From a virus: a stretch of DNA of 64,000 bases. The notes below the pieces were generated by a model. It searched no databases, was not told where the DNA came from, and saw only the letters and a list, made by a program, of their open reading frames with translations. The position numbers and the translations under genes are program-made. Location: IMG/VR virus record IMGVR_UViG_3300017917_000095, positions 20,898-84,897 of that record; one strand, given 5' to 3'. Shown here in pieces: positions 34,499 to 62,853 of the stretch (position 1 is the first letter of the stretch; every line of letters starts with the position of its first letter).

Positions 34499-35475
34499 TA
34501 GCTATCGAAGCACCCGAGAAGTATGTTGCTATCACATGGCAAGTAAACAACTTCTGTAACTTTAAGTGCAGCTACTGCAACCCGGGTAACTGGGGCGGCA
34601 GTAACCGTAACGAGGGTAATCTAGACAAGTACTTAGAGAACTTGGGAGTTATCGTCAATCGTTATCGTGCAGCTGGGTACAAGAATTTCAAATTCTTTTT
34701 CTCTGGTGGCGAACCTACAGCTTGGGAGAACTTTATCCCTATCTGTGAATGGATTCACAAGACATTACCCAAGAGTACGCTAGCAGTCAATACTAATCTA
34801 AGTCGTCCTACAGCCTGGTGGGAAAAGCACTATCATCTATTTGACGATATCGTAGCAAGCTTCCATGTAGAGTTTGCAGACAAGAAACGCTATGAAGCTA
34901 ACTCAATCTTTTTATGTGACAAGGTCAATTACTTGTCTACAAAGATGCTAATGCACGAAGAAAGATTCTGGGAAGTTGTTGAATTTGCAGAGCATTTAAA
35001 GACAGTCATGCCCAATTATTTTATTGAGTGGACTCCTCTGTATGATGAATTAAATCACGTAACAGGACCATGGCAATACCAAGACGAAGCTAAGACAGAA
35101 TTCTTTAAGACACACAATATTGAGATGCAATTTACACTGCCCAAGCCGGGTAAGCGTACGGAAAACACAGTGAGTATGAATCGCTATGACGATGATTCTA
35201 CACAAGTATGCAATGCCAATGACTTGATCGTTACAGGACAGAACTTCTACGATGGGTGGAATTGTAATGTGGGTGACTGCGTATTCATAAATACCATTGG
35301 GGATGTTAGTCTTGCAAGTTGCGGGCTAGGTGGTTACGTTGGCAATATACTAGAAGATATCAGCCGTGTAGGCCCTAAGCAAATCGTGTGCAGAAAAGAA
35401 ATGTGCATGTGCGGGACAGACATTATTATTCCTAAGTTTGATGGGGATTGGATGGAATTAAATGGAAATAAATGA
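34483..35475 (+). CDS. Radical SAM protein with C-terminal Cys-rich (twitch/SPASM-like) domain, 330 aa
   Basis: CNFKCSYC near the N-terminus, SGGEPT, C-terminal CNVG...SC...CRKEMCMCGTD. Confidence 0.85.
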   Translation: MGKKLIAIEAPEKYVAITWQVNNFCNFKCSYCNPGNWGGSNRNEGNLDKYLENLGVIVNRYRAAGYKNFKFFFSGGEPTAWENFIPICEWIHKTLPKSTLAVNTNLSRPTAWWEKHYHLFDDIVASFHVEFADKKRYEANSIFLCDKVNYLSTKMLMHEERFWEVVEFAEHLKTVMPNYFIEWTPLYDELNHVTGPWQYQDEAKTEFFKTHNIEMQFTLPKPGKRTENTVSMNRYDDDSTQVCNANDLIVTGQNFYDGWNCNVGDCVFINTIGDVSLASCGLGGYVGNILEDISRVGPKQIVCRKEMCMCGTDIIIPKFDGDWMELNGNK

Positions 35476-36784
35476 CGATACACCTATTAAGATAGTGTAC
35501 AACTGGATTGGGCCTAGAGGCCCTATCATTAATACGGAGTTACCAAACATATTGAGCTTTGCTAACGTAAGCGAAGCCGCGTCAGTCAACAGTACAAGAT
35601 TCTGGGCTGATGATATCTATTGGCGTGTATTCATGCACAACGGTAACTATCCTATCAGTCCTGCATACACTGTCAGTGATAAGGATGCGTTTGTTTATCC
35701 CTATACACTAGCTTGGAGAACACAGTTTCATAATTACTTCTTAAATGATGGGGGAATTATGGAATTTAGCCACACCCCTAATCATATTATACATCAAGTC
35801 AGACACCACAATGGTTTCTTTTTAATTGACTATAGTCCTGAGGCATGGGTGCAAGACAATCAATTGCAAGTCATGCACAGTTATTTCAGTCATTTCAACG
35901 ATATTCCAATTGGTAAAGTGATATACATCACAGGCTGTATGAATGCACAAGAGATATATGACAACTGGTGTGATCGTAACGGTATTCCAGATGATCCTAT
36001 GCATCGTATGATAATGGTTCCGTTCCCTATCAGTCAACATGCTATCTCATGTCAGTTAGATCAAGTAGAAGAACCTGTATACGATGAGAATCACTTGCCA
36101 GAAAAGCTTTTCCTATGCTGGAATAGACGTTTCCGTCCACATCGCACACAGTTAGCACTTGCACTAGATAAAGCAGGGTTAGTAGATCGTAGCTATTATA
36201 GCATGAACCTAGTAGACCCAGAGATGAACAGTCTACATTTTAAGAATACAGTAGACATATATCACAACCCAATGCTAGGATTGACAAGTCAAGACGCAGA
36301 ACAGTTTATCAATAAGCTTCCTCTAGTGATTGACGGGGAAAGCGATATTATGCGTATGTGTGGAGACTTTGACCGTGCAGCAAAAGACTTCTATGCCAAT
36401 AGCTTAGTGTCAATTATTACTGAGACTAATTTTGAATTGTCTGAGTTAACTGCTACAGAAAAGACATGGAAGCCTGCTAAAGAAAAGCACCCGTTTATCA
36501 TGGTTGGAACAGCAGGTGCATTGCGTACATTACAAGAGTTTGGCTTTCAAACCTTTGATGAATTCTGGGACGAATCATATGATGATATAGAAGATCCTAG
36601 ACAACGTATGCACAAGATTATTCAAGTGTGTAAAGATATCGGATCTTGGACTCCTGAACAAGTACTTGACTTCAAGCGTAGAGTAAAGCCTATACTAGAG
36701 CATAACTACAAGATGTTGCACACCAATACTGCTAAACGTGTAGCAGATAAAATTAGAAAAGAAATGGCAAAGAGGACAAGATGA
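35462..36784 (+). CDS. Putative GT-B glycosyltransferase with GT10-like motifs, 440 aa
   Basis: FLCWNRRFRPHR and ITETN...TEKTWKP...PF...GFQTFDEFWDESYD motifs shared with six other copies in the window. Confidence 0.5.
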   Translation: MEINDDTPIKIVYNWIGPRGPIINTELPNILSFANVSEAASVNSTRFWADDIYWRVFMHNGNYPISPAYTVSDKDAFVYPYTLAWRTQFHNYFLNDGGIMEFSHTPNHIIHQVRHHNGFFLIDYSPEAWVQDNQLQVMHSYFSHFNDIPIGKVIYITGCMNAQEIYDNWCDRNGIPDDPMHRMIMVPFPISQHAISCQLDQVEEPVYDENHLPEKLFLCWNRRFRPHRTQLALALDKAGLVDRSYYSMNLVDPEMNSLHFKNTVDIYHNPMLGLTSQDAEQFINKLPLVIDGESDIMRMCGDFDRAAKDFYANSLVSIITETNFELSELTATEKTWKPAKEKHPFIMVGTAGALRTLQEFGFQTFDEFWDESYDDIEDPRQRMHKIIQVCKDIGSWTPEQVLDFKRRVKPILEHNYKMLHTNTAKRVADKIRKEMAKRTR

Positions 36785-37758
36785 AAAAGATATTAGTCTG
36801 TGGAGCAGGTGGATTCATTGGATCCCACTTAGTCAAGAAATTAAAACAAGATGGTCACTATGTAATTGGGGTAGATTTAAAAGCCCCGTTGTACGAGAAT
36901 TCTGTAGCTGATGAATTCCATTTAATGGACTTACGTGACCAACGTAGAGTCAGTAAGTTAATTAACGGAACAATTGACGAGATTTATCAATTGGCCGCTG
37001 ACATGGGTGGCGCAGGGTATATTTTTACGGGTGAACACGATGCTGATATCATGCATAATTCAGCAATGATTAACTTAAACATCCTGGATGAAATGCGTAC
37101 TAAAGGCGTGAAGAAGATTTTCTACAGTAGTTCAGCATGTATGTACCCAAGTCATAATCAAGAGGATCCTGACAATCCGTTACTTACAGAAGATAGCGCA
37201 TACCCTGCAAACCCAGACAGTGAGTATGGATGGGAGAAACTATTCAGTGAACGTCTATACATGAGTTATGCTAGAAACTACGGCTTTGATGTACGTATAG
37301 CACGTTTCCACAATGTATTCGGACCCTATGGTTCATGGAATAATGGCAAAGAGAAAGCACCCGCGGCTCTTTGCAGAAAAGTAGCAACTGTCGAGCCCGG
37401 CGGAACAATAGATATATGGGGTCCGGGCACACAAACTCGCAGCTTCTTATACATTGATGAATGTATAGAGGGTATGCAACGTTTGATGGATAGCGACTTC
37501 ACGGGCCCGGTAAATCTGGGCAGTGAACGCATGATTTCAATAAACAATCTAGTATTCTTGATCGGTCGTCTAGTAGACAAGAATGTGTGCATACGTAACG
37601 TAGACGGTCCAATGGGTGTCATGGGTCGTAACAGTGACAACAATCTTATCAGAGAAAAGCTAGGCTGGGCTCCGCAAGAGAACTTAGAAGATGGCTTGAT
37701 TAAGACATACAATTGGATTGTTGAACAAATAGAACAAGGTAAATCGGATGAGAAATGA
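36781..37758 (+). CDS. NAD-dependent epimerase, GDP-mannose 3,5-epimerase-like, 325 aa
   Basis: GAGGFIG, LAADMGGAGYI, SSACMYP, YGWEK (YxxxK), RFHNVFGP, EKAPAALCRK are characteristic of the GME subfamily. Confidence 0.85.
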   Translation: MKKILVCGAGGFIGSHLVKKLKQDGHYVIGVDLKAPLYENSVADEFHLMDLRDQRRVSKLINGTIDEIYQLAADMGGAGYIFTGEHDADIMHNSAMINLNILDEMRTKGVKKIFYSSSACMYPSHNQEDPDNPLLTEDSAYPANPDSEYGWEKLFSERLYMSYARNYGFDVRIARFHNVFGPYGSWNNGKEKAPAALCRKVATVEPGGTIDIWGPGTQTRSFLYIDECIEGMQRLMDSDFTGPVNLGSERMISINNLVFLIGRLVDKNVCIRNVDGPMGVMGRNSDNNLIREKLGWAPQENLEDGLIKTYNWIVEQIEQGKSDEK

Positions 37759-38837
37759 CAAGAGCCTACATCCTTCAGATTTACCCCAAGCACACTCCTG
37801 AATATTACATACCAATAATCCAAGATATCAAAGACAAGAACCCTGACAAAATTCTAATATTTTCGTTGGGGGAAATCACAGTAGAATATATCTATGAATT
37901 TCTGTTCAGAGATATACAGAGTTGGCTAATTGAGAATAACAAGTATCTCCATGTTTTATGGGCCGGCCCCGACATGGAGATAAGCCCGCATATACTAGGT
38001 GTCAACACAATAGGATCAGCGTTTGGAAATGTGTCAAACGTATATGCATTGAAAGAGCAGTACGGGGAACCCGATCTGTCTACATGTACCAAGTTGTTCA
38101 CATCATACAATAACAATGCCAAGTTCGAACGCAAATACTTTGTAGACTTGTGTGCAGAGTTTGATCTAATTAAAGATGGTGTTGTCACGTACAGATATCC
38201 TAATTTAAAAGTAGTCCCTAATTATGAATGGAAATATCATGATGGCTCTGTATTATTTGACGAGCCTAATTTTGATTTAGGAGCAAGTACATCCACTCCG
38301 GGCAGCTTACCCACTCGCTATTTCGAGGGGTTTATTGACATAGTATGTGAAACAGATAGCAGAAACGGCTTTTACATACCTACTGAAAAGACAGCTAAAC
38401 CATTGGGTGCAATGAAGCCGTTCTTAGTTATCAGTAGTATGCACTATCACAAGTTCCTATATGAAGAATACGGCATAGAAATGTACGAGGAATTGTTTGA
38501 CTATACTTTTGACAACGAACCTGATCTTAGAAAGCGCATACAAGGTGTAGTTCGAAACTTAGTTAGACTACGCAATAAGTTCAATAAGAACCCAGAACTA
38601 AGACAAGAGATATATGAGTCAATAAAGCCCAAATTGTTACGCAACAGAGAAATGGCTTTAAATACACTTCATACATTGCGTAGTAAAAACAAATTGATAC
38701 CAGACTGCTTGAAATTCATAACAGAAGAAGCTGATTACGAATTATTGGGTGAGACAGTAAATGACGGTGGTGGAAAGCATTTTTACACAGATAAAGCATG
38801 GCACCTAGACTCTAGGTTTTATTGGGAAAAGAAATGA
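37755..38837 (+). CDS. Putative GT10-like domain protein, 360 aa
   Basis: FTSYNNNAKFER; IVCETD...PTEKTAKP...KPF...LFDYTFD. Confidence 0.5.
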   Translation: MTRAYILQIYPKHTPEYYIPIIQDIKDKNPDKILIFSLGEITVEYIYEFLFRDIQSWLIENNKYLHVLWAGPDMEISPHILGVNTIGSAFGNVSNVYALKEQYGEPDLSTCTKLFTSYNNNAKFERKYFVDLCAEFDLIKDGVVTYRYPNLKVVPNYEWKYHDGSVLFDEPNFDLGASTSTPGSLPTRYFEGFIDIVCETDSRNGFYIPTEKTAKPLGAMKPFLVISSMHYHKFLYEEYGIEMYEELFDYTFDNEPDLRKRIQGVVRNLVRLRNKFNKNPELRQEIYESIKPKLLRNREMALNTLHTLRSKNKLIPDCLKFITEEADYELLGETVNDGGGKHFYTDKAWHLDSRFYWEKK

Positions 38838-39721: not shown

Positions 39722-41645
39722 GAAGAAAAAGATCAGTTTCGTTAGTCCTAATTTTCAGCAAGGCCCGAAAGAATTAAACGCCTTCTATTTACCATATAGC
39801 ACGGGCGTATTATGGGCATACGTCAATCAATTTCCTATTGTACAAGACAACTATGAATTAGGGGAATTTATTTGGCGCAGAGAAGAAATCAGTGACGTTG
39901 TAGAACAATTAAAAGACAGCGATGTTGTCTGTTTCAGTTGTTATGTATGGAATCGTAGCTATACCAAAGAGCTTGGAAAAGCATTGAAATTAGCTAATCC
40001 AAACGTATTCATGATCGGTGGCGGCCCCGAATTTCCTATTGAAAAAGAAGATATCTTTGAACGTTATAGTTTCCTAGATATCTGTGTTAAGCTTGAGGGT
40101 GAAAAGACTTTCCGTCGCATACTAGAAGAACATGTACAAGAAACACCTGACTATAAATCAATCGCAGGCATGCTATTGAACGAGAACGGCAAGCCTTTTA
40201 ATACAGGTGACACTGTTCGTATTGACGACTTAGACACGATCCCAAGTCCTTATTTGACAGGCGTGTTTGACAAGCTTATGGCTAAGTTCCCCGAGATACG
40301 TTGGAACGGTACACTAGAAACTAACCGTGGTTGCCCTTATGCATGTACATTCTGTGACTGGGGTTCACTAACATATAACAAAGTAAAGATATTCGACCTA
40401 GAACGTGTGTTCGATGAACTAGAATGGATGGGTTCACATAACTTTGACTTTATCAGTATCACAGACGCAAACTTTGGTATCTTTGCCGAACGTGATAGCA
40501 TGATTGCTGATAAGCTTATTGAAGTACAAAAGAAGTATGGTAACCCACGTGCATACACAATCGCATGGGCAAAGAATCAAAAGAAAGAAGTTGTCGATAT
40601 TGTTAAGAAATTGATTTATGAGGGTGGCAGTAAGCTTGGCCTCAACCTATCAGTACAGACAATGGACGAGAACACACTAGAGATTATCAAGCGTAAGAAC
40701 CTAGATACAAACAAAATTGAAGATGTGTTTGCACTATGCGAAGAAAACAATATCCCATTGTACACTGAATTAATTCTAGGGTTGCCGGGTGAGACATTAA
40801 ACAGTTGGAAAGAAAACTTCTCCAGACTCTATAAAGCAGGCAATCACACAGGTATTACTGTATATCAGGCACAATTGCTTGAGAACGCTGAAATGAGTTT
40901 GACACAGCGTAAGATGTATAAGCTAGAAGGTAGTATGGTATATGACTATCTAGCCGGCTCATATAACGAATATAATCTACAAGAGGGTGTTGAGATTGTT
41001 GTTTCAACACGTGACTTGCCACCTGAGAAGATGTTGCAAGCACAATTATACAGTTGGTTTCAGAATACATTCCACATTAATGGAATTACTAATTACATTA
41101 GCCGATTACTATACAAGAAATACGGTGTTGAATACAGAGATTTCTACGATAAGCTTTACACATATGTTGAAAAAGACCCATGGTATAAGTCTGAGATTGA
41201 CAGAATTACCGAACACTATAAACACTGGGGAACACGTGGAAAGATTCATCATGATCTAGTTGAGGGTATGGAGATTCACGGTTGGAACTTGATTCACAGT
41301 ACAATCATTATCCTACAGAGTCAGGCTAAGCATAGTCATACCTTTGAATTGATTGAAGATTTCATGCGTAAAGAATACCCATTGGAAGAGTCATTGCATC
41401 AAGACTTAATGAAGTTACAGCGTAACTATCTAATTGACTATACACAAGCACAAAGCTATCCTAAGACCTTAGAGTTCAAGCATGATATCTTTGGGTATTT
41501 GCAGGACCAGAATGAATTAGAAGTTCCTTCTGTCTATGAATATGAGTTCCCGGAAGATAAAGATATGTCATTGCAAAAGTTCTGTGAACAAATCTTCTTT
41601 GCAAGACGTAGAAACTTCGGTAAAGCCTGGGTCGCTAGAAAATGA
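39714..41645 (+). CDS. B12-binding domain radical SAM protein (class B-like), 643 aa
   Basis: N-terminal cobalamin-binding-type segment (FSCYVWN...IGGGPE...EGE), ETNRGCPYACTFCDW, ELILGLPGET. Confidence 0.85.
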   Translation: MHKKKKISFVSPNFQQGPKELNAFYLPYSTGVLWAYVNQFPIVQDNYELGEFIWRREEISDVVEQLKDSDVVCFSCYVWNRSYTKELGKALKLANPNVFMIGGGPEFPIEKEDIFERYSFLDICVKLEGEKTFRRILEEHVQETPDYKSIAGMLLNENGKPFNTGDTVRIDDLDTIPSPYLTGVFDKLMAKFPEIRWNGTLETNRGCPYACTFCDWGSLTYNKVKIFDLERVFDELEWMGSHNFDFISITDANFGIFAERDSMIADKLIEVQKKYGNPRAYTIAWAKNQKKEVVDIVKKLIYEGGSKLGLNLSVQTMDENTLEIIKRKNLDTNKIEDVFALCEENNIPLYTELILGLPGETLNSWKENFSRLYKAGNHTGITVYQAQLLENAEMSLTQRKMYKLEGSMVYDYLAGSYNEYNLQEGVEIVVSTRDLPPEKMLQAQLYSWFQNTFHINGITNYISRLLYKKYGVEYRDFYDKLYTYVEKDPWYKSEIDRITEHYKHWGTRGKIHHDLVEGMEIHGWNLIHSTIIILQSQAKHSHTFELIEDFMRKEYPLEESLHQDLMKLQRNYLIDYTQAQSYPKTLEFKHDIFGYLQDQNELEVPSVYEYEFPEDKDMSLQKFCEQIFFARRRNFGKAWVARK

Positions 41646-43702
41646 AAATATGGCACAGTATAGTAGAGAGTGAATTTAATAGCGACGGGTTATTAGCTAT
41701 ACTTGATGATGCTGTTAGTAAAAACGCATCTGAAGTTGTATTACTTGCTGAGACAGAATGGCAAACGCCCGGTGTTTATGATGCTATCGTTAATAGATAC
41801 AACGAAAAGAATATTAAACTAACCATTGTCTATTGTTCTGTTCATAGTCCGTACTATGAGAAATTCGCTAGTGATTCTAAATTACCTAGCGAGAATATTC
41901 ACTACTGGCCTACATACTGGTTGTCCTGGAGTCTTGAGAACCTAACAAGCACATATACATATCAGAATAATACAGTCGATCCTAGCAAATTCAAATACCC
42001 TTTTATCTCATTGAATAACCGTAGCCATTTGCATCGTTGTGTATTCATTGACGAGATGGCTAAACAGGATTTGATTGATCGTGGAGTTGTCACGTGGGTA
42101 AAGCATTTGAGCGAGAATCCAGACTACCCATACAAACACTTTGATAACCGTCAGTTGACATTGAATGATGACTTCGAGAACAAATTGGATTCGTTTATGT
42201 TGCCCAATGAGTTCAATGAATCACTGTTTCACATGGTTACCGAAGCTACGCATCTTACTGGGTTTATATCTGAAAAGACAGCTATCCCATTGTTCATGAA
42301 GAAGCCGTTTATTGTACTGTCTGCACCCCACTATCAAAAGCATTTAGACGATCTAGGATTCTTGCGCTATGACGAAATTATCGACTATAGCTATGATGAT
42401 ATAGAGGATTTAGAGTTACGCACCGAGAAATTTGTAGCCAATATTCATAGATTCAAAGATATGAATTTAGCAGAGGTCTATGAATTATTGCGTGAAAAGA
42501 TAGAATACAATCACAATCGTGCAATAGAACTGACAAAGGATCTTAGCTATATCCCTGAGCCTATACGTGAACGCTATCAACATGTACAGACAAATGGTGT
42601 CGAATTCTTAACTGACCGTAGATATATCAAGTTCGTGAATCAAGCATCTAACCCTATAGTCTATCATATATGGGATGATCGCTTGCCTAGAGTCATTGAG
42701 AAGTTAGATACTACGTTACATGGCATAGAACACATAATTCTCAATGCTGCTATCGAATACAATTACGGTGTTATCGGTGGCAGAAAAGAATTAATGGATA
42801 AGCTTATCCAGTTGACAGATTCTGCTGGAATAAAACTTGATGTCATAACGGGAACATGCGATACCTATAATTTAATTGACACTAATATACATAAGCATGT
42901 CAGTGTATATTACTGGCCCACGTTCTGGTTAACAATGCTATTGATGCGTTTGTCAGTTAGTCCCAACTATCAGATGAATATGGCAGTTGGGCTAGATGTA
43001 TTCAAGATACGTGTAAATGAAAACACTCCGTTAAAGTATCCATATATCTCTATGAACAAGGCCCCAAAGCTTCACAGGGCAATGCTGATGGACATGCTTG
43101 CTAAGTATGAATTGATTGACAAGGGTGTAGTAATTTGGCGTGAACCCGTACAGGGCTATCAGTTTGAATACTGGACTGAAGAGATTATGCTACGTGACCA
43201 GAAAGATAAGTTTGTCAGTCAAGAGCGTGTTCCGTTAGAATATCCGTTATCATTCATTCAAGTTGTCCCTGAGTCTGACGAGGACATGTTTATACTGAGC
43301 GAAAAGACAGGCATGGCTATCTTCTTCAACAAGCCCTTTATTGTCATGGCTTGTGTCAACTATCATAAGATACTAAGTGAGCTTGGGTTTAAATTGTATG
43401 ACGAATTGTTTGACTACAGTTTTGACTGTGAACCCGATACCATGAAGCGTTGTGAAATGATCGCCCAGAATGTGCAGAAGTATGCAGAAAAGACACCGGA
43501 CGAACTAAACCAACTATACAAGTCAGTGTATGAGAAGTGTGTCTACAATAAGGAATTAGCTATTAAACTAGCTACTAGCAGTGAATTGATTCCCCCGGTT
43601 TGGCAAGACATAGTGGATAGCCAGATGAAAAATAATATAGCCGACTACCCTGTCGCTATAAATAATTTCATAAAATCCACTGAGCATGAATTTAGACTTT
43701 AA
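41642..43702 (+). CDS. Tandem two-domain GT10-like protein, 686 aa
   Basis: Two copies of YWPT(Y/F)WL...KYP(F/Y)IS(L/M)N...LHR...LID(R/K)GVV.W...SEKT...KPFIV...LGF..YDE..DYS(Y/F)D. Confidence 0.55.
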   Translation: MKIWHSIVESEFNSDGLLAILDDAVSKNASEVVLLAETEWQTPGVYDAIVNRYNEKNIKLTIVYCSVHSPYYEKFASDSKLPSENIHYWPTYWLSWSLENLTSTYTYQNNTVDPSKFKYPFISLNNRSHLHRCVFIDEMAKQDLIDRGVVTWVKHLSENPDYPYKHFDNRQLTLNDDFENKLDSFMLPNEFNESLFHMVTEATHLTGFISEKTAIPLFMKKPFIVLSAPHYQKHLDDLGFLRYDEIIDYSYDDIEDLELRTEKFVANIHRFKDMNLAEVYELLREKIEYNHNRAIELTKDLSYIPEPIRERYQHVQTNGVEFLTDRRYIKFVNQASNPIVYHIWDDRLPRVIEKLDTTLHGIEHIILNAAIEYNYGVIGGRKELMDKLIQLTDSAGIKLDVITGTCDTYNLIDTNIHKHVSVYYWPTFWLTMLLMRLSVSPNYQMNMAVGLDVFKIRVNENTPLKYPYISMNKAPKLHRAMLMDMLAKYELIDKGVVIWREPVQGYQFEYWTEEIMLRDQKDKFVSQERVPLEYPLSFIQVVPESDEDMFILSEKTGMAIFFNKPFIVMACVNYHKILSELGFKLYDELFDYSFDCEPDTMKRCEMIAQNVQKYAEKTPDELNQLYKSVYEKCVYNKELAIKLATSSELIPPVWQDIVDSQMKNNIADYPVAINNFIKSTEHEFRL

Positions 43703-44511: not shown

Positions 44512-47500
44512 ATGAAAAAAGTAGCAATGATTGGTGTAGGTAAGTTAGGACAAGACTGTGCAGAAGTAATGTCAGACGCAGGGTATGATGTAGTGGGCTA
44601 TGATGTAGCACCCCGTAGTCCTGCTTTCCCAATGCGTAACTCAATTGAGGAAGCAGTCAAAGATAGAGACATGATCTTTATCGCAGCTCCAACACCCCAT
44701 GATCCTATCTATGGTGGAGAGACACCAACAAGTCACTTGCCTAACAAGGACTTTGATTATACCATTGTTACTGAAATTCTAAAAGAAGTTAACAAATACG
44801 TTACTAAGAGTCAATTAGTTGTTCTCATCAGCACAGTGCTACCCGGAACAGTTCGCAATATCCTAGAGCCTTGTATCACTAACGCAAGATTCATTTACAA
44901 CCCTTACCTCATAGCTATGGGTACTGTAAAATGGGACATGGTAAATCCAGAAATGGTAATTATCGGTACAGAGGATGGTAGCCTCACTGGTGATGCTAGT
45001 GAACTAATTGACTTCTACAAGACCTTCATGCAGAATAATCCTCGCTATGAAGTTGGTACATGGGACGAAGCAGAATCAATTAAGATTTTCTATAATACGT
45101 TCATCAGTACAAAGCTTGCACTTGTTAACATGATTCAGGACGTTGCTGAGACTAATGGTAATATCAACGTTGATGTAGTTACAAATGCATTGAAGAAATC
45201 AACATATCGCATCATGGGTCCTGCATATATGACAGCAGCTTTCGGCGATGCAGGAGCATGTCACCCACGTGATAACATTGCACTACGATATCTAACAGAT
45301 AGACTAGACTTGGGCTATGACTTGTTTGATGCTATCATGACTGCACGTGAAGTACAAGCAGAGCGTATGGCATTGCGTTGCTTAAAGAACGGACGTAATG
45401 TTACTATCGTTGGTAAAGCATACAAGCCATGCGTTCCATACACAATCGGATCTGCATCTATGTTAGTGGGCTACTATATTGAGAAGCACGGTGGCAACTT
45501 AAACTACTATGATCCTAACACAGGTGATCTAGACTTGCGTGAAGATTGGACTCAAGTCTATCTGATCGGCTATTGGGAAGAGTGGGTCGAGAAGCTAGAG
45601 TTTAAGGATCCGGGCTGTGTAGTTATTGACCCATGGCGCAAGCTTACAAGCAAGCAACATACAGGGGAAATCATTCACTACGGTGATACACGTCCTAAGA
45701 AAACATACAGTGTTCCTGAGTCTACTATACAAACAATGCGTACTCAAGTCTATGAGATGTTCCCTGAACTAAGACAATATGATAGCGACATTCATCTAGT
45801 TGATGCAACTATCAATATGGATACAACATTTGTTATGCGCCCGACTGAGGCAGTCGTCAAAGAATTACTAGAAGCTAAGGCTAATGGGCGTAGTAAGTTT
45901 ATGTTCTTTGCACCCACAGAAGCATTCATGCCACATGTTGTTTCTAAGGTTCAACGTATTGCTAGCATCCTTGATGGAAAGATCGATGAATCTGATATCA
46001 TCGTTGTTACCGGCGTGATTGACGCCGACGAAATCTACGAGCGTCTTTTAAAAAAAAACGGTTGGAACAAGCGTCTTAACCTCTTAAACTGTCATTTCTT
46101 TAACTACATAACCACTACATATGCCCGTGGATACGAGTATATTGGTGGTTATGATGTACGCTTCCGTGGCAAAATATTCACGTGCTTTAATAAACTGAAC
46201 CGCGAACATCGTCTAGTGATGCTAGAGCGTATGCTACAAACGGGTATGATTAAGAATGGCTACTATTCATTTGAGGGTGAGGGTAATTTCAAAGATACTA
46301 TTCCATCATTGAGTGATGAAAAATTCCCTGCAATCAAGCACAATCAGGACATGTTCCCGTTGCGTTTGAACATCACACCTGATAGACACAACCCAGTTGA
46401 CATTCAACCCGATGACTTGCATTATTACAAGGACAGCTATTTCTCAATCGTAAGTGAGACATTGTTCTATGATAGCAACAGAGTAGGTCAGGCTCATCGT
46501 CCATTCGTTGAGGACTCATTGTTCTTGACAGAGAAAACATATCGTTGCTTTGCAACACTGCACCCATTCATACTGTTAGCAAGACCCCATTCATTAAAAG
46601 AATTGCGTAAGCAGGGCTTCAAGACCTTTGCACCATTCATCAATGAAGCATACGATGATATCGAGAACGATGACCAACGCTTTGAGGCTATCTTCAAAGA
46701 AATCACTAGACTGAATAACTTTACTGGCGATGATTGGACATTGTTCCAAGAAAAGATTAAGCCTATTGTAGAGTACAACAAAGACTTTTTCCATAGTAAC
46801 AAAGACTTTGCTATCACTAAAGACTATCTAAAGTTCTTTGGTCAATTGCAACCAAGAGCATACGTTGAGCCTGTTAGAATCGAATCAGTCATAGAGGCAG
46901 TTAATGAAGCACCTGTGATTCCTACATATATGCAAACTGAGTCTACTATGGGTGACGAATTGCCTACAATGGAAGATATCAGTGAGAAGCTTGACTGGAG
47001 AAACAGACAGTTAGAATATCCTAATGGTATAACACTTAACTTCCCTTGCCACATTGACGGCGGAGGTGATGATTACAAAGATGAATTGATTGCATTGATC
47101 GAACGTACCGGACAGAAAACTAATTATGAATCAGCACTTGATTGGTGTGCAGGTCACGGTCCGTTTGGCTTTGAATTGCTAGCCAACAACATAGCAGATC
47201 ATGTCACATTCCAAGATTGCTATGTTACCGCAGTCGATTCATGCATCAAAAATGGACAAGAGAATAACATAGGTGATAAGGTTACGGGTTATACTTGTGA
47301 CAAGATATCATTGATTCCCGAATCTGAAAAGTTTGATTTGGTAGTAGCAAACCCTCCCCATAGCAATACACTAGAGAATATCGAACGCAATCAATTCTTT
47401 GCCAATACTGCTAGAATGATTGTAGATGACAATTTTGTTATGCACAAAGAGTTCTTTGCAAATATCCATAAATATCTAACTGATGATGCAGATGTGTATA

Positions 47501-49945: not shown

Positions 49946-50544
49946 AAGAAGTCCGTGAATTTGAAGAACTGATTGCTGACTTCTATGGTGCTCCGTATGC
50001 TATCGCTACTGATTGTTGTACTCATGCACTTGAACTATGCCTACGCTTGAATCCTCCAGTCACTACTACAGCCCCGCACCATACATATCTCAGCGTGCCT
50101 ATGACATTAGAGAAGCTAGGACTAGATTGGAAATTCTACAATGCTCAGTGGAAAGACTATTACTATCTAGGCAACACAAACATCATTGACGCCGCAGTAT
50201 ACTGGAAGAAGAATGGTTACATACCCAACACGTTTATGTGTCTAAGCTTTCAGTATCGCAAGCATTTGAACGTGGGTCGCGGCGGCATGATTCTAACTGA
50301 TAACAAAGAGGCTGCACTCAAGCTAAAGAAAATGAGTTATGATGGTCGTGTGCCTGATGTACTCTGGGCTGAACAAGATGTAGATATGTTGGGTTACCAT
50401 TACTACATGACCCCAGAGGCAGCGCAACTAGGCATACAACGGTTCCATGAAATAAAAGACGCACAGCCTAAACGCTGGACATTTAATGATTATCCAGATA
50501 TCAGTAATATGAAAGTTTTTAATGAACAAGATTCAAGTAAGTAA
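49942..50544 (+). CDS. DegT/DnrJ/EryC1/StrS-family PLP aminotransferase, unusually short (200 aa)
   Basis: FEELIADFYGAPYAIATDCCTHALEL, IIDAA (PLP Asp), CLSFQYRKHL (Schiff-base Lys), GRGGMILTD, GYHYYMT. Confidence 0.75.
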   Translation: MKEVREFEELIADFYGAPYAIATDCCTHALELCLRLNPPVTTTAPHHTYLSVPMTLEKLGLDWKFYNAQWKDYYYLGNTNIIDAAVYWKKNGYIPNTFMCLSFQYRKHLNVGRGGMILTDNKEAALKLKKMSYDGRVPDVLWAEQDVDMLGYHYYMTPEAAQLGIQRFHEIKDAQPKRWTFNDYPDISNMKVFNEQDSSK

Positions 50545-51498: not shown

Positions 51499-53277
51499 AT
51501 GGCAGAAAAATGGATGCGTGGTCATGTTAGTAGATTCTGGGATCATGAAGATTACAAGAAGTTTGATTATGTAAAACAACCATTGATGGATTCAGAGATT
51601 GCTACATGGAAATCTCAAGGATACGATTACGTAAAAAGCTTTAGTGGTTCTATGTATGACAATAGAAACCCTATGCCAGAGTGGGTAAAGCGTTTTGATA
51701 AAATCTTCAACCTAAAGAACATGACCTATAATTTCTACAAGATGCAACAGTTAGAAATTATGCCAGAGCACGTAGATCACTTCCAGACATACATGAAGAT
51801 GTTTGATGCGAAGTATCAAAACGTCACTAGGATTCTAGTGATGTTGGAAGACTGGAAGCCCGGTCACTACTTAGAAATTGATGGAGTCGGTGTAGTTAAT
51901 TGGGTAGCAGGTGATTACTTCATGTGGGAAAGTGATGTTCCCCATGCTGCTGCCAACATCGGTACGGAAGATCGCTACACTTTGCAGATCACCGGTACTG
52001 TATTCAAGACAGAAGATGTATACAAGTACATACACTGGTACAACATTCCAGGGCTAGAGACAAAGAAAGAATCGTTGTTCTCACCTGAAATGGATTTCAT
52101 GTATAAGCACATGAGAAAAGAAACTCCATACTACATCTACATGTACAACAGAGAGATTGCAGAGTTAGAAACGATGAAGCATGATCCTGAAGTAGTGGAT
52201 CACTTGAACAAAACAGGTGTGGATATCTATCTGAACGAACCACTATGTTCATATCGTTTGGGTGATAAGCATGGCCCTGATGGTGGTGTTCACTCGTTGA
52301 TTTTTTACAGTGAATTCACCGATGACCAAGTTCAAGATACTCGTTTACTGAGGTCGGTCGAACTGGATAGCATAGAAAAATATGTAACAAATAACAATCT
52401 TACTAATGTCACGGTAAGAACGTGTGACTACAACATTGAGCGTTTCTATACACACTATCTTCCAAAGATGAAATTAGTAACCGACGACCTTTTCTTGAAG
52501 TATTTTGACCTCAATGAATTCGAGCCTCTCACAGAAGAGGAAGAAGACCTCAGTCATTTTACACGCAGATTTGTGTGCATGAATTGGAGATATGCACCGC
52601 ACCGTTTGATAACTGCTGCATATCTAGCCAATAAGATAGACACAGTTAACCTCACATGGTATTTCAAGTCTGATATGGGAACAGTTAGCAAAGAGCCATG
52701 GTACAGCTTCCATGAATGGATTAAGAAAAATCCATCAGCATTCTCTAAGATGATAACAGGTATCAACAAATTGAACAGTGGTTCTCCTTGGAACTTAGAC
52801 CTAGCAGTCAAAGAAGCAACATTAATAGATCAATCTTATTATAAGCGTATGTTCCCTGCAGGGGTTATATTTGACCAAAAAACTACTAAGTTTGGTGACA
52901 ATAAAGATAGACTGAAATATCTCTATCATGATTCCTTCTGTGATGTTGTTACTGAATCGCGTTTTGCACAACCAACTGCAAACTACAGCGAGAAAGTGTA
53001 TCGTCCGATGTATTACAAGAAGCCATTCATTATGGTTGGGCCCCCTCATACACTTGAACACATGAGAGAGCAAGGATTTATGACCTTCAATGACTTCTGG
53101 GATGAATCATATGATTATATCGAAGACCATGAAGAAAGAATGTTTGCAATCTTTAAAGTCATTGATAAGATCAACTCTATGCCTATTCCAGAGTTACAGA
53201 AGATGTACGCTCAGATGAAACACATCGTGGATCATAACAGAAGAACATTGTTAAAAAAATGCCCTAGCAGGTACTAA
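51499..53277 (+). CDS. Fusion: 2OG-Fe(II) oxygenase/cupin-like domain + GT10-like domain
   Basis: PEHVD...PHAAANIG..DRYTLQIT (HxD...H...R); C-terminal FVCMNWRYAPHR, VVTES...SEKVYRP...KPF...GFMTFNDFWDESYD; start ATG 51499 preferred. Confidence 0.65.
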   Translation: MAEKWMRGHVSRFWDHEDYKKFDYVKQPLMDSEIATWKSQGYDYVKSFSGSMYDNRNPMPEWVKRFDKIFNLKNMTYNFYKMQQLEIMPEHVDHFQTYMKMFDAKYQNVTRILVMLEDWKPGHYLEIDGVGVVNWVAGDYFMWESDVPHAAANIGTEDRYTLQITGTVFKTEDVYKYIHWYNIPGLETKKESLFSPEMDFMYKHMRKETPYYIYMYNREIAELETMKHDPEVVDHLNKTGVDIYLNEPLCSYRLGDKHGPDGGVHSLIFYSEFTDDQVQDTRLLRSVELDSIEKYVTNNNLTNVTVRTCDYNIERFYTHYLPKMKLVTDDLFLKYFDLNEFEPLTEEEEDLSHFTRRFVCMNWRYAPHRLITAAYLANKIDTVNLTWYFKSDMGTVSKEPWYSFHEWIKKNPSAFSKMITGINKLNSGSPWNLDLAVKEATLIDQSYYKRMFPAGVIFDQKTTKFGDNKDRLKYLYHDSFCDVVTESRFAQPTANYSEKVYRPMYYKKPFIMVGPPHTLEHMREQGFMTFNDFWDESYDYIEDHEERMFAIFKVIDKINSMPIPELQKMYAQMKHIVDHNRRTLLKKCPSRY

Positions 53278-60800: not shown

Positions 60801-61834
60801 GTGAATTGATTGATAAGATGACCGTGTTACAAGAGTATGAAAAGATCAACTACAACCAGACTCAACGTGTTAAGCGTTTGCAACCTCCTACAATTGTCAC
60901 TGAGTTTGATACACATGTGGCAAGCGTGATGCAAGACTTTGACTTCCCGTATGCTGTATTTGTTACTGAAGATAACAAGGATATCGTTGCAGTTGAAGAA
61001 GAACCAATGAACTTGTGGGATAAAGAATCTAAGAACATTCTTATTACAAGTACAGGTGGCACACGCATCATTGTTCCCAAAGAAGCAAAGCAGTATGTTG
61101 AGACACAGTTATATGATTACCCGTACATCAAGACTGCATCACGCCTAGCTAAGTCTAAACCACTAGACATTGTTTACTTGAGTAACGGTGAGTCATGTGC
61201 AGAAGAAAACTATGAACACTTGTTGAAGGTGACAAAGGGCTTGCCTAATAGAATCGTTCGTGTCGATGGAATCAACGGTCGTGTTGAAGCATATCATGCT
61301 GCCGCAGAAGCAAGTGAAACACCTTGGATGTTCACTGTGTTTGCTAAGTTGAAATTGAATGCCAAGTTTGACTTTAACTGGCAACCAGATAGACTACAAA
61401 TTCCTAAACACTATATGTTCTTAGCCAAGAACCCCGTTAACGGTTTGATCTATGGCCACCAAGGTATGATTGCATACAATAAGCAAATGACATTAGACAA
61501 TCCCGGATATGGTCTAGACTTCACATTAGATAGTCCACATGAAACGATTGAATTGCTATCAGGTATCACAACGTATAACACTGACGAATGGGCTACATGG
61601 CGCACAGCGTTCCGTGAAGTCATCAAGCTAAAGAAAGAGAACTCAGAGATTAGCTTGAAGCGTTTGGATGCTTGGTTAAACAAAGCAGAAGGTAACTTTG
61701 CTGAGTATTCACTAGATGGTGCCCGTCATGGTGTCGAGTATTTTGAAGAAGTAGAAGGCAAGACAGACAAGTTGCGTTTGAGTTACGAATGGTCTTGGCT
61801 GCGTCAACGATTCGATGAAAAGTATAAGAAATGA
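54893..61834 (+). CDS. 2313-aa repeat protein: ~23 Trp/Pro-rich repeats plus degenerate C-terminal GT-A-like modules
   Basis: Repeat consensus NWxxPxxxDxxxFDFSWxPxxxxPxYIYxFGxQWxxxGGPxYxxxGATExKY; C-terminal LDIVYLSNGE...RVDGINGRVEAYHAAA...NPVNGLIYGHQG...WRTAFREVIKL resembles 28410..29363. Confidence 0.75.
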   Translation: MLRDVFYYGKKPNVHPKERPAKNLADARKQATTEHFWIINEFCDYTNFDWDFDFEFLPDQDVWAEDHNNVWPSVHQKDSGTWLCPKTKSEVIVYRADVDSLKRKNIITDNWKMLDHIDTSKWDFSWHPDPTDPPFIYKWGSKYAPVELKTCLEYHVEGATLVKYMNTTVDLLPNWDCIVEVQKVDHNHWDMSWRPDPLDPPFIYVWGNKYIDGRLRATLEYHVPEATEKKYMPELVPVQPEWDRWVFLHEIDKTSFDFTWRPDPREPDFIYVFGNDQYDGTVMPTIEYRMPGATVTKYNLDKKAKLAPHPEKFQHLEKADGIDYSWVPDPTSPPYIYAWGNQWNKPEDKVSIQYVVEGATEYKYMEQRAKRKPCMDNWEVPDNIDTTGFDFSWEPSPADPAYIYEFGTQWQKTGGPRYVVPGATEVKYVEFQKAKALVNPVAKQKNWSVPNNLDITGFDFSWHPDATSPPYIYHFATQWALTGGPIYTCDGATEVKYLEEPSAIALPDKTNWKYDPKLIDENSFDFSWHPYVEDQPYVYVFGTQHQKTGGPVYYTPGALSTSPVKYIDTRILRATRLPNRKNFAVLNNYQIDNFDWSWHPDETEESYVYVFGNNQYSAEIMPTIEYAMPGAKQIKYINTVKATLGADRTNWVINQPINESTFDFSWKPNPKDPPYIYRWGNKYISNKYKSTIDYVVPEATEIKYMDDNVEVLPQMDRWEIPSDVSTDGFDFSWRPDPLEPDLIWQFGTQWQKTGGPRYVVPGATEIKYVDIKVTALPQKEKFTTLHPIENFDWSWHPDDTEEPFIYVFGNNQYPAEIMPTVEYRMPGATQVKYINDVSAKLAVDMTNWSIPDDLDTSGFDFSWKPNPKDPAYNYEFGTQWQKTGGPRYVVEGSTETKYVDMMKAKKLPNKRNFAVLNNYQIKDFDWSWHPDSTDEPFIYQFGNNQYPAEIMPTIEYMVEGAIQVKYVHEAIATLDVDMTNWEVPESVDTTGFDFSWKPNPKDPAYNYEFGTQWQKTGGPRYLVTDATETKYVSTQKVKALPVKTNWTIPPHIDVAGFDFSWHPDATSPPYVYHFATQWALSGGPIYRVDGATEVKYMDELCATALPNKENWEVPSDVNVSAFDFSWHPYVEDQPYIYQFGTQHQKTGGPRYITPGSVASSPVKYIDTRILKAEKLPNRKNFNILNNYKIKDFDWSWHPDTTDEPFIYVFGNNQYPAEIMPTLEYAMPNAKEIKYVHSVVATLSSDRNNWEIPDNIDVTEFDFSWKPNPKDPPYIYQFGTQHQKTGGPRYVVPDATEVKYVEGSKAKALPTTANWILPKDLDIVDFDYSWHPDSTEAAYEYIFPTQWQLTGGPRYMVPGSQELKFMDGPVATVGPTTKNWEVPADIVLKDFDFSWHPHPDDPTFIYEFATQWHDRGGPRYIAPGANKDTPVKYIDGRIIKATLGPNKNNWVAAQKIDEDKFDYSWVPHPNDPPYIYRWGNKFISGVFKPTIEYQAPGATEYKYMDDNVEVLPQWDRWEIPEGIDSTGFDFSWRPDPLEPDLIWQFGTQWQKTGGPRYVVPGATDIKYIDTMKVRRLPSKKNWFNPQQSDVTLFDYSWHPDDTNPPYIYQFGTLVDMNDGPRYITPDSTGNVVFLQRVEVDEAVEVDEAPSEEIIEKYFIETTLDDLVKQHPNQVFWAMNKNIDYSKFDFEWRPESLRDMEYVQVFGSPDSALTHTYFVNSKSYAAGNKDFKFIENANLDESYLSSLFIKSDMFFVDKGNKESQARFDELKNLFGNRIQKTRYLNSWVDTINRCINRSTTDLCWILNSELDYSNFNFEYYPNPWQMKMVHVFGTQWSHWGTTFMVNRETFAADTKYIKIIEHLSNLNFVKDRIANATNRIYDVIYIDHGNLATVPGTSVKYEESYLKTFKNMLAILPEKKEHYVWVCSTVCDYTGFDFTYICDPFARDQLHVFPSDKQKFGDTFLVNVNKLRELIDKMTVLQEYEKINYNQTQRVKRLQPPTIVTEFDTHVASVMQDFDFPYAVFVTEDNKDIVAVEEEPMNLWDKESKNILITSTGGTRIIVPKEAKQYVETQLYDYPYIKTASRLAKSKPLDIVYLSNGESCAEENYEHLLKVTKGLPNRIVRVDGINGRVEAYHAAAEASETPWMFTVFAKLKLNAKFDFNWQPDRLQIPKHYMFLAKNPVNGLIYGHQGMIAYNKQMTLDNPGYGLDFTLDSPHETIELLSGITTYNTDEWATWRTAFREVIKLKKENSEISLKRLDAWLNKAEGNFAEYSLDGARHGVEYFEEVEGKTDKLRLSYEWSWLRQRFDEKYKK
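55220..59790 (+). repeat. Intragenic tandem array of ~23 units of ~200 nt (~65-70 aa)
   Basis: 23 counted (F/W/I)D(F/W/Y/M)(S/T)WxP cores; near-identical DNA blocks, e.g. 57077-57186 vs 59471-59580. Confidence 0.85.
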
Positions 61835-62853
61835 AATACGCCTGCACTAATCAATGGGACGGGCTACAGATGCCCGCCTTCAGGGATAAAGTATTGAATG
61901 GTAACTATGATAAGGTGGTTTTGTTCGGTCAGAACGAGTGGGCTTGGTATCATCAGAACCCTGAATTCTATGAGATACTTGAATACTGTAAACAACGAAA
62001 CATACCGGTTGAAATAATAACCGGTGCATGTGAAGAATTGTACCCAGCGAAGATGGACTATGTAAAGATTCATTGGTGGGACACCTATTGGATAGGAAAG
62101 ACATATCAAGATTTGATCGGTAGTATGGCACACACCGGTAAACCCCCTAGAGCAATTGATCCATACGAAACTACAAACTTTCAGCACCATTATATTTGCA
62201 TGAACAATAGACCTCACAAGCATCGATGTTTGCTCATTGACTTATTAGCAAAGAATGACTTAATGCAATACGGGGCATTGTCTATACGAGGTGAAGATCC
62301 TATACTTTACAAGTGGAGATACTTTAATTACACTCCGATGTATTTGTCAGAAGGTGTGGAGTACGATCAATACAAAATGCCAGATCAATACTATAATTCA
62401 TTCGCACAGTTGATTAGCGAAAGTTCTAGTGATGTGTTGATGATATCTGAAAAAACGGCAACACCGTTGATACTAGGCAAACCATTCTTAGTAGCAAGTC
62501 AAGTAAATTTTCATAAAACATTGAGTAGGATGGGTTTTGAGTTGTACGATGAAATCTTTGACTACGGGTTTGATAGTGAACCTGACGAAGAAAAGCGATA
62601 TGAAATGCTACTAAAAAACTTTGTTAGATTGTCTAAGATTCCACTGAAAAACTTAAATCGTTTACAGAAACAGTTGGCTCCCAAGATCATGCGTAACAGG
62701 GAACGTGCTAGGGAAATTTCGTATGATTTGAATTTGTATCCAAAGATTGCATTGGAAGCGATAGATCACTATCACAAAACGGGTGAGGAGTTGGATCACC
62801 GAATGATCCAAGTGCATTTGAATCTGGAAAGATACAGGAAAGTCAAGTTTTGA
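61831..62853 (+). CDS. Putative GT10-like domain protein, 340 aa
   Basis: WWDTYW, YICMNNRPHKHR, LISES...ISEKTATP...KPF...GFELYDEIFDYGFD. Confidence 0.5.
   Translation: MKYACTNQWDGLQMPAFRDKVLNGNYDKVVLFGQNEWAWYHQNPEFYEILEYCKQRNIPVEIITGACEELYPAKMDYVKIHWWDTYWIGKTYQDLIGSMAHTGKPPRAIDPYETTNFQHHYICMNNRPHKHRCLLIDLLAKNDLMQYGALSIRGEDPILYKWRYFNYTPMYLSEGVEYDQYKMPDQYYNSFAQLISESSSDVLMISEKTATPLILGKPFLVASQVNFHKTLSRMGFELYDEIFDYGFDSEPDEEKRYEMLLKNFVRLSKIPLKNLNRLQKQLAPKIMRNRERAREISYDLNLYPKIALEAIDHYHKTGEELDHRMIQVHLNLERYRKVKF

What the first reader, a model, noticed from the sequence alone, without database searches (positions are those of the whole stretch)
35462..62853. Seven copies of an unannotated domain carrying both GT10 fucosyltransferase-type donor-binding motifs
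Seen: in 35462, 37755, 41642 (twice), 44512 (middle), 51499 (C-terminal) and 61831, a motif (F/Y)x(C/S)xNxxxxx(H/E)R is followed ~100 aa later by E(T/S/A)...(T/S)EK(T/V)...PF...G(F/I)...(W/F/I)(D/N)xx(Y/F)D. Known: GT10 alpha-1,3-fucosyltransferases bind GDP-sugar with an F..SN....R motif and an EN....Y.TEK motif in the same order. Inference: this is an expanded, divergent GT-B family using GDP-sugars, with variable N-terminal acceptor domains, each adding a different residue or linkage.
Basis: partly seen in the sequence, partly recalled or inferred. Interest (0 to 1): 0.8.

Follow-up and report, generated by a model that had tools for sequence, protein, structure and literature searches.

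The report
Seven GT10-like glycosyltransferases in jumbo phage
A jumbo phage carries seven old, diverged copies of an unnamed sugar-transferring enzyme distantly related to fucosyltransferases, set in a 36-kb operon of sugar-tailoring enzymes that probably builds an elaborate glycan inside the infected cell.

Summary
Six ORFs hold exactly seven copies of one domain. A family HMM scores them at E 1e-60 to 1e-104, and the next-best ORF scores 0.5. Both motifs are present in every copy.

No Pfam, PHROG or NCBIfam model matches the domain. AlphaFold2 models of two divergent copies (pLDDT 94.9 and 85.8) are two-Rossmann GT-B folds, and their structural neighbours are essentially all GT-B enzymes.

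Profile-profile comparison links the family specifically to bona fide GT10:
- GT10, whole length: P 2.5e-4.
- GT10, E...(S/T)EK...PF segment alone: P 1.1e-5.
- GT4 control: P 0.49.
- GT11 control: P 0.058.

The N-x6-R and E-x9-EK spacings equal those of FUT9 in three copies. However, the Asn and Tyr of the GT10 motif are not conserved, and PF00852 does not match. I therefore read this as a sister family, not as GT10.

The family is large and mostly viral: 13,584 clusters at 50% identity. Neither of the two copies searched matched 50,697 GenBank phage records.

A GDP-mannose 3,5-epimerase homologue (E 2e-101) is translationally coupled between two copies, which supports GDP-L-hexose donors for those two. 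Donors and acceptors of all copies remain untested. All 28 ORFs of the window lack membrane segments, so the acceptor is cytoplasmic. The scan noted a similar cluster on another genome.

The parts
35462..36784 (+). Copy 1: 440-aa GT10-like GT-B enzyme. HMM domain aa 104-435. N221, R228, E321, E333-K334. Candidate base E127.
36781..37758 (+). GDP-mannose 3,5-epimerase homologue. It overlaps both flanking GT genes by 4 nt. It is the likely source of a GDP-L-galactose/GDP-L-gulose donor.
   Evidence: 2c59 E 2e-101, full length; coordinates
37755..38837 (+). Copy 2: 360 aa. N119, R126, E199, E211-K212. Candidate base E40.
41642..42646 (+). Copy 3: first half of the 686-aa tandem protein (aa 2-335). 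N125, R132, E201, E211-K212. Candidate base E39.
   Evidence: a separate gene in L041/L037
42644..43702 (+). Copy 4: second half of the tandem protein (aa 335-686). N472, R479, E544, E554-K555. Candidate base E372.
44512..45702 (+). NDP-sugar 6-dehydrogenase module fused upstream of copy 5. It is a stand-alone ~397-aa gene in many related contigs.
45850..46830 (+). Copy 5: middle of the 1039-aa fusion (HMM aa 447-773). N560, R567, E649, E674-K675. Candidate base E470.
47026..47631 (+). Class I (HemK/MTS-like) methyltransferase module fused downstream of copy 5.
   Evidence: GT+MTase is a 628-aa protein in L041/L037
51499..52005 (+). Cupin module with a weak Asp/Asn beta-hydroxylase-like hit, fused upstream of copy 6. 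It is a separate 163-168-aa gene in other contigs.
52015..53277 (+). Copy 6: C-terminal GT unit (HMM aa 299-600 of the 606-aa frame). N376, R383, E500, E512-K513. Candidate base E261 (YxEP).
61831..62853 (+). Copy 7: 340-aa minimal form of the family, used as the reference model. E36, N125, H131, R132, E197, E207-K208, P218-F219, G235, D248, R256, N289.

Best explanation
The seven copies are complete catalytic units of a large, unnamed family of GT-B glycosyltransferases. The family is a distant sister of CAZy GT10 (alpha-1,3/4-fucosyltransferases).

Shown here:
- The fold is two-Rossmann GT-B.
- The family has a specific remote profile similarity to GT10.
- The C-terminal domain keeps an invariant Arg (R132 in copy 7) and a Glu-Lys pair (E207-K208). 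These sit at the sequence positions that, in FUT9 and H. pylori FucT, hold the nucleotide-sugar diphosphate and donor.
- One acidic residue in the N-terminal domain (E36) is nearly universally conserved.

Inferred:
- Each unit binds an NDP-sugar in the C-terminal domain through R, E and K.
- The N-terminal Glu deprotonates an acceptor hydroxyl.
- Transfer goes with inversion, as in GT10.
- Copies 1 and 2 flank a GDP-mannose 3,5-epimerase, so they most likely use GDP-L-galactose or GDP-L-gulose, the 6-hydroxy analogues of GDP-L-fucose. Donors of the other copies are open.
- The seven units act one after another. They work together with GT2-like proteins, seven radical SAM enzymes, a methyltransferase, an amidinotransferase and a carbamoyltransferase.
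- The product is a heavily tailored oligosaccharide on a soluble cytoplasmic acceptor. No protein in the window has a membrane segment. My preferred acceptor is a virion protein of this Rak2/GAP32-like jumbo myovirus, because the operon directly follows the baseplate and fibre genes.
For: Paralogy and motifs.

Fold: AF2 pLDDT 94.9 and 85.8. Nearly every structural neighbour is a GT-B enzyme. GT10 structures lie within 1-2.7 Z of the top hit:
- Copy 7: FUT11 9.4, FUT9 9.3, H. pylori FucT 8.4, against a top of 11.1.
- Copy 1: H. pylori FucT 11.1, FUT9 10.8, against a top of 11.9.

GT10 specificity:
- hhalign score 37.2 (P 2.5e-4) against 21 PF00852-positive ORFs. Forty column shuffles gave at most 19.4, the reversed alignment 13.1, GT4 13.2 and GT11 20.4.
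- The EK segment alone gives P 1.1e-5, probability 82%.
- HMM-versus-sequence scores are 9-20 bits on the best six GT10 sequences and at most 3.4 bits on controls.
- ESM-Atlas and BFVD both name GT10 first.

Roles of the GT10 residues: FUT9 Arg202 and Lys256 hold the diphosphate, Asn195 and Asn246 contact the donor, and Glu137 is the base. The invariant motif is E-N-x5-Y-x-T-E-K (PMC12717137). Copy 7 has the same N-to-R (7) and E-to-E (10) spacings.

Candidate base: 99% D/E at one N-domain column across 206 domains.

Donor: the GME homologue scores E 2e-101.

Soluble pathway: no TM-like segment in any of 28 ORFs.

Distinct roles: each copy clusters with positional orthologues at 0.17-1.44 substitutions per site. 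The nearest in-window paralogue is 3.8-5.4 away. The same operon, with the fusions split into separate genes, recurs on many IMG/VR contigs.
Against: - No biochemical data exist for any member.
- PF00852 does not match even at E<=10.
- The Asn and Tyr of the GT10 donor motif are replaced, and the guanine-contacting Ser is out of register. Nucleotide and sugar specificity therefore cannot be read from GT10.
- Structural Z-scores do not separate GT10 from other GT-B families. T4 beta-glucosyltransferase (copy 7) and EXT1 (copy 1) rank first.
- The fused dehydrogenase is nearer to UDP-glucose dehydrogenases (1e-18) than to GDP-mannose dehydrogenase (1e-14).
- I could not superpose models on ligand complexes, so the residue equivalences rest on sequence alignment alone.
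- The acceptor is pure inference.
Confidence: 0.75

Rival explanations
1. The enzymes build a small-molecule pseudo-oligosaccharide, aminoglycoside-like, rather than a protein-linked glycan. The GT10-like units would glycosylate a cyclitol or amino-sugar core that is then amidinated, carbamoylated and C-methylated.
For: A StrB1-like inosamine-phosphate amidinotransferase (1bwd, E 1e-64) follows a DegT-type aminotransferase fragment. The window also holds a carbamoyltransferase and two B12-radical SAM enzymes. Bacterial members of the family sit among radical SAM genes in a Bdellovibrionia chromosome. In a Chloroflexota contig they sit with a halogenase and an AMP-binding enzyme, which looks like natural-product context.
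Against: The operon is contiguous with baseplate and fibre genes and is widespread in jumbo-phage contigs. No exporter, resistance gene or cyclitol synthase was seen in the window. Seven to ten GTs are many for one small molecule.
Confidence: 0.15
2. They are DNA glycosyltransferases that hypermodify hydroxymethylated bases of the phage genome, like T4 alpha- and beta-glucosyltransferases.
For: T4 beta-glucosyltransferase is the top structural match for copy 7 (Z 11.1) and a near-top match for copy 1 (Z 11.2). Phages are known to decorate DNA with several sugars (cited in PMC12619734).
Against: The Z-scores are tied with dozens of other GT-B enzymes. The sequence signal points to GT10, not to other families. 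Related, more complete records carry a thymidylate-synthase-family gene at about 350 bits, full length. I read that as canonical ThyA rather than a dCMP/dUMP hydroxymethylase, which is my inference from the score. Bacterial chromosomal members exist. The operon lies with late structural genes.
Confidence: 0.07
3. They remodel a host envelope glycan (LPS, capsule, S-layer glycan) during infection, as proposed for cyanophage 'LPS genes'.
For: Phage-borne GME, fucose-pathway genes and fucosyltransferases have been interpreted this way (PMC9602691).
Against: The window has no initiating phosphoglycosyl transferase, flippase, polymerase or ABC transporter, and no membrane segment in any of 28 ORFs. 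Host machinery could substitute for these, so this is not excluded.
Confidence: 0.1
4. The GT-B fold is used for something other than glycosyl transfer, for example polyol-phosphate transfer (TagF-like), sugar-nucleotide 2-epimerisation or pyruvyl transfer.
For: UDP-GlcNAc 2-epimerases and one pyruvyl-transferase-like protein appear among the weak fold matches.
Against: The conserved residues align with the GT10 donor-binding Arg and Glu-Lys, not with epimerase or TagF catalytic residues. These families rank below many true GTs.
Confidence: 0.04

Closest known systems
CAZy GT10 / Pfam PF00852 alpha-1,3/4-fucosyltransferases (H. pylori FucT 2NZW/5ZOI, human FUT9 8D0O, plant FUT11/FUT13)
   Same: GT-B fold. 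The order of motifs in the C-terminal domain is the same: N-x6-R, then (D/E)-x-L five residues after the Arg, then beta-strand-E, then (S/T)-E-K at a helix start, then P-(F/I) on the next strand. The spacings are identical in three of the seven copies. A single conserved Glu follows a beta-strand in the N-terminal domain. It is the only known family with significant profile similarity.
   Different: No PF00852 match. The Asn of E-N and the Tyr of Y-x-T-E-K are not conserved. There are 13-67 extra residues between the two motifs. A long helical C-terminal extension carries further invariant residues (D248, R256, N289). The N-domains are unrelated in sequence. The donor is probably not GDP-fucose.
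T4 beta-glucosyltransferase (1C3J/1BGT) and other phage GT-B enzymes
   Same: Compact GT-B fold of phage origin. Best Z (11.1) for the 340-aa copy.
   Different: No sequence or motif similarity was detected. BGT uses UDP-glucose on hmC DNA. Its Z is tied with many other GT-B enzymes.
GT47 exostosins (EXT1/EXTL3)
   Same: Best Z (11.9) for copy 1, with a GT-B fold.
   Different: Only a fold-level match, within 1 Z of GT10 and others. No profile comparison was made because I fetched no GT47 sequences.
Virus-encoded virion glycosylation systems (mycobacteriophage capsid/tail glycosylation cited in PMC12619734; chlorovirus and mimivirus systems from my own knowledge)
   Same: The virus carries its own soluble GTs and sugar-nucleotide enzymes next to structural genes.
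   Different: Those systems use GT2/GT4-type or other enzymes and far fewer tailoring steps. No link to this family is known. Whether this operon glycosylates virions is untested.

Membership tests
GT-B fold glycosyltransferase superfamily | Two facing Rossmann-like domains with a C-terminal helix crossing back | tested here: met
   AF2 models at pLDDT 94.9 and 85.8. The Foldseek and VIA-align neighbours are almost all GT-B enzymes, with Z up to 11.1 and 11.9.
CAZy GT10 / Pfam PF00852 | Sequence match to the Glyco_transf_10 model above its gathering score | tested here: not met
   No PF00852 hit on the six proteins (E<=0.1), on 45 family members (E<=10), or in a six-frame search of the record.
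CAZy GT10 / Pfam PF00852 | Invariant donor motif E-N-x5-Y-x-T-E-K (PMC12717137) | tested here: not met
   E...(S/T)EK is invariant. The E-to-E spacing is 10 in three copies, 12 in three and 25 in one. The Asn is S/T/A and the Tyr is not conserved.
CAZy GT10 / Pfam PF00852 | Conserved Arg (SN...R motif) contacting the pyrophosphate | tested here: inconclusive
   R132 is invariant and aligns with the GT10 Arg in both global and local hhalign. The segment alone gives P 0.23, and no superposition on a ligand complex was possible.
CAZy GT10 / Pfam PF00852 | Remote homology by profile-profile comparison, specific against other GT-B families | tested here: met
   hhalign P 2.5e-4 (whole length) and 1.1e-5 (EK segment). 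Controls: GT4 0.49, GT11 0.058, shuffles at most 19.4 against 37.2. HMM scores 9-20 bits against at most 3.4 bits.
CAZy GT10 / Pfam PF00852 | Inverting transfer of L-fucose from GDP-beta-L-fucose | not testable with these tools
   The only context is a GDP-mannose 3,5-epimerase homologue between copies 1 and 2.
T4-type DNA beta-glucosyltransferase | Sequence relationship, and a hydroxymethyl-pyrimidine pathway in the phage | tested here: inconclusive
   Only a fold match (Z 11.1). Relatives carry a ~350-bit thymidylate-synthase-family gene that looks canonical. The window's own record is only 15% complete.

The most novel reading that the evidence does not exclude
This is a new glycosyltransferase family of more than 10,000 sequence clusters, almost confined to uncultured phages. 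Its members use GDP-L-hexoses and other rare donors. In jumbo phages they form a membrane-independent assembly line with radical SAM, amidino-, carbamoyl- and methyl-transferases. The line decorates giant virion fibres with a guanidinylated, carbamoylated, L-sugar-containing glycan. That would be a phage counterpart of mimivirus fibril glycosylation.
Probability: 0.25. Interest if true: 0.85.

Novelty: new variant of a known kind. Interest (0 to 1): 0.62.

Why it matters
A family of about 13,600 clusters at 50% identity has no Pfam, PHROG or NCBIfam name and no characterised member. Giving it a fold, a nearest relative (GT10), candidate catalytic residues and a candidate donor (GDP-L-galactose or GDP-L-gulose from the adjacent epimerase) makes it directly testable.

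The operon is one of the largest glycan-tailoring gene sets seen in a phage, and it is conserved across many environmental jumbo-phage contigs. If it glycosylates virions, it would change how host range, immune or defence evasion and particle stability are understood for these phages. The enzymes would also be a source of L-hexosyl transferases for glycoengineering.

Tried and rejected
- Pfam, PHROGs and NCBIfam gave no name for the domain. This includes 45 members scanned at E<=10.
- A profile search of PDB sequences gave only a spurious N-terminal hit to a dehydratase.
- tblastn of two divergent copies against 50,697 GenBank phage records found nothing. megablast of the 12-kb core also found nothing.
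- PF00852 was not found in the record or in five large related records.
- Structural Z-scores could not discriminate GT10 from other GT-B families.
- The N-terminal domain and the N...R segment alone gave no significant profile match to GT10.
- I suspected o43686 (43686-44504) of being an eighth, degenerate copy, because relatives have a GT there. It is not (E 0.68). It has an SGNH-like GCSFT start.
- A relation to 'moraphages' (PMC12619734) was not tested.
Full report
**Setting**

The window is bases 20,898-84,897 of an 84.9-kb IMG/VR virus record that CheckV rates 15% complete. Its baseplate wedge protein (152-3520) is 34% identical over its full length to those of Rak2/GAP32-type jumbo myoviruses with 355-470-kb genomes. 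It is followed by a 6529-aa ORF and a fibre-like protein with an intramolecular-chaperone domain.

From 26.4 to 62.9 kb, 23 ORFs of 120 aa or more lie on the + strand, most of them overlapping or within a few bases of each other. They include:
- five radical SAM genes, three of them with a Pfam SPASM hit placed N-terminally;
- two B12-radical SAM genes;
- a DegT-like fragment;
- an amidinotransferase (StrB1/1bwd, E 1e-64);
- a carbamoyltransferase;
- an NDP-sugar dehydrogenase;
- a methyltransferase;
- a GT2-like protein;
- a 2313-aa repeat protein.

None of the 28 ORFs has a membrane-like segment.

**The observation**

The copies are true paralogues:
- BLASTP E-values are 1e-5 to 1e-42.
- There are eleven invariant columns.
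- Seven HMM domains score E 1e-60 to 1e-104, and the next-best ORF scores 0.5.
- A six-frame search of the whole record also finds seven.

No Pfam, PHROG or NCBIfam model matches the domain.

**Fold**

I modelled the minimal 340-aa copy (61831) with a 45-sequence alignment. The model has pLDDT 94.9 and pTM 0.92. I modelled the most divergent subfamily (35462) with 24 sequences, giving pLDDT 85.8. Both are two-Rossmann GT-B folds. Foldseek and VIA-align return almost only GT-B enzymes.
- For copy 7: T4 beta-glucosyltransferase Z 11.1, FUT11 9.4, FUT9 9.3, H. pylori FucT 8.4.
- For copy 1: EXT1 11.9, H. pylori FucT 11.1, FUT9 10.8.

Z-scores alone do not single out GT10.

**Is it GT10-like?**

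I fetched 21 ORFs that pass the PF00852 cut-off from Bdellovibrionota genomes. As controls I fetched 21 GT4 ORFs (PF00534) and 12 GT11 ORFs (PF01531). I compared them with a 105-sequence family profile using hhalign.

| Target | Score | P |
|---|---|---|
| GT10 | 37.2 | 2.5e-4 |
| GT4 | 13.2 | 0.49 |
| GT11 | 20.4 | 0.058 |
| Reversed GT10 | 13.1 | 0.52 |
| 40 column shuffles of GT10 | 9.4-19.4 | not computed |

- The segment from the E197 strand to N289 alone gives P 1.1e-5 (probability 82%). It aligns ES...SEKT..P....KPF with EN...YxTEK..P....IPIYWG.
- The N...R segment alone is not significant (P 0.23). Its best local alignment still puts R132 and the following xxLIDLL on the GT10 Arg and xxFFELL, collinear with the second motif.
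- With HMMER at maximum sensitivity, the family HMM scores 9-20 bits on the best six of the 20 GT10 sequences. It scores at most 3.4 bits on the controls.
- The ESM-Atlas nearest named clusters are PF00852, at 0.79, which is a lead only.
- The first named BFVD neighbour is a Solivirus alpha(1,3)-fucosyltransferase. It comes after about 21 'uncharacterized' proteins of uncultured phages.

A recent review states that GT10-type enzymes share an invariant E-N-x5-Y-x-T-E-K. In FUT9, Arg202 and Lys256 hold the diphosphate, Asn195 and Asn246 contact the donor, and Glu137 is the base (PMC12717137).

Copy 7 has N125-x6-R132 and E197-x9-E207-K208. These are the same spacings as FUT9 N195-R202 and E245-E255-K256. 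The differences from GT10 are:
- The residue after the first Glu is S/T/A.
- The Tyr is not kept.
- Three copies have two extra residues, and one has fifteen.
- The two motifs are 76-130 residues apart, against 54-63 in GT10.

I conclude that this is a sister family of GT10, not a member of it.

**A candidate base**

Across 206 family domains, one N-domain column is 99% Asp/Glu (E36 in copy 7). It follows a hydrophobic strand. All seven window copies have it, and in copy 6 it is shifted three residues, in a YxEP context. GT10 enzymes also carry their base just after an N-domain strand (YTGE in the fetched sequences). I could not test whether the positions are spatially equivalent.

**Donors**

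ORF 36781-37758 overlaps copies 1 and 2 by 4 nt on each side. It matches Arabidopsis GDP-mannose 3,5-epimerase at E 2e-101 over its full length. The next family scores 1e-28. This makes GDP-L-galactose or GDP-L-gulose the likely donor for those two copies. The dehydrogenase fused to copy 5 is nearer to UDP-glucose dehydrogenases (1e-18) than to GDP-mannose dehydrogenase (1e-14). A uniform 'GDP-sugar family' is therefore not established.

**Architecture**

The extra modules are enzymes, not acceptor domains. In related contigs:
- the dehydrogenase is a separate ~397-aa gene followed by a 628-aa GT+methyltransferase;
- the cupin is a separate ~165-aa gene followed by a ~380-aa GT;
- the tandem protein is split into two genes.

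**Distribution**

- 289 relatives were found in IMG/VR with a single peptide pattern. There are 5-7 copies per 20 kb in many contigs, 10 in one 139-kb record, and 3 in a 333-kb record that is 92% complete.
- 13,584 representative clusters score E<=1e-3, and 10,911 score E<=1e-10.
- GenBank phage records gave no match.
- One peptide-pattern scan of the 185,579-species genome set confirmed only four loci. One is in a Bdellovibrionia MAG with three copies on a 936-kb contig, one of them among six radical SAM genes. Another is on a Chloroflexota contig with a B12-radical SAM enzyme, a 2OG oxygenase, a carbamoyltransferase and a halogenase.
- Orthologues of copy 7 lie next to a homologue of the 2313-aa repeat protein in 56 of 79 loci, and next to the carbamoyltransferase in 30.
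- In a tree of 132 domains, every window copy groups with positional orthologues at 0.17-1.44 substitutions per site, with support of at least 0.92 on enclosing clades. The nearest in-window paralogue is 3.8-5.4 substitutions per site away. The duplications are old and each copy has been kept.

**Mechanism proposed**

Each copy is an inverting NDP-sugar transferase. Arg, Glu and Lys in the C-domain hold the donor, and the N-domain Glu acts as base. The copies work sequentially in the cytoplasm with the tailoring enzymes.

The acceptor is unknown. I favour virion proteins, based on the adjacent structural genes and the soluble pathway. A small-molecule product, host glycans and DNA are the rivals.

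**Verdict**

Donor identity and the 'acceptor domain' reading are only partly supported. The scan noted a similar cluster on another genome (e1-5824211).

Noticed in passing
window 54893-61834: The 2313-aa protein contains roughly 25 tandem units with the motif FDFSW(H/K/R)PDP..PPYIY.FG(T/N)QW..GGPRY..PGATE.KY. Its C-terminus (aa 2091-2252) resembles ORF 28410-29363, whose ESM-Atlas neighbours include a 'Glycosyltransferase 2-like' cluster. A homologue lies next to copy-7 orthologues in 56 of 79 related loci.
   Followed up: partly
window 49942-51496: A 200-aa DegT-type aminotransferase fragment is followed by a 324-aa amidinotransferase. The latter matches streptomycin StrB1 (1bwd) at E 1e-64. 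This is streptidine-like aminate-then-amidinate logic inside a phage operon.
   Followed up: partly
window 23289-62853: None of the 28 ORFs of 120 aa or more in the window has a hydrophobic 19-residue stretch (KD>=1.8). The whole 36-kb glycan operon is soluble. It has no flippase, polymerase or initiating phosphoglycosyl transferase.
   Followed up: yes
L083:5227-14071 (Bdellovibrionia MAG, 936-kb contig): A 324-aa bacterial member of the family sits in a run of six radical SAM genes next to seryl-tRNA synthetase. The same genome has two more members side by side, plus a bona fide GT10.
   Followed up: partly
L082:4127-13538 (Chloroflexota MAG contig): A family member lies with a B12-radical SAM enzyme, a 2OG-Fe(II) oxygenase, a carbamoyltransferase, a tryptophan-halogenase-like protein and an AMP-binding enzyme. 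This looks like natural-product context.
   Followed up: no
window 43686-44504: This 272-aa ORF begins FAFGCSFTQ, which is SGNH/GDSL-like. It sits where related contigs carry an extra GT10-like paralogue. It is not a member of the family (E 0.68).
   Followed up: partly
window 29357-34498: Of four consecutive radical SAM paralogues (23-46% identical), three have the Pfam SPASM match at residues ~14-82, ahead of the radical SAM core instead of after it.
   Followed up: no
window 152-23120: A Rak2/GAP32-type baseplate wedge protein (34% identical, full length) is followed by a single 6529-aa ORF. The phage is a relative of 355-470-kb jumbo myoviruses.
   Followed up: partly
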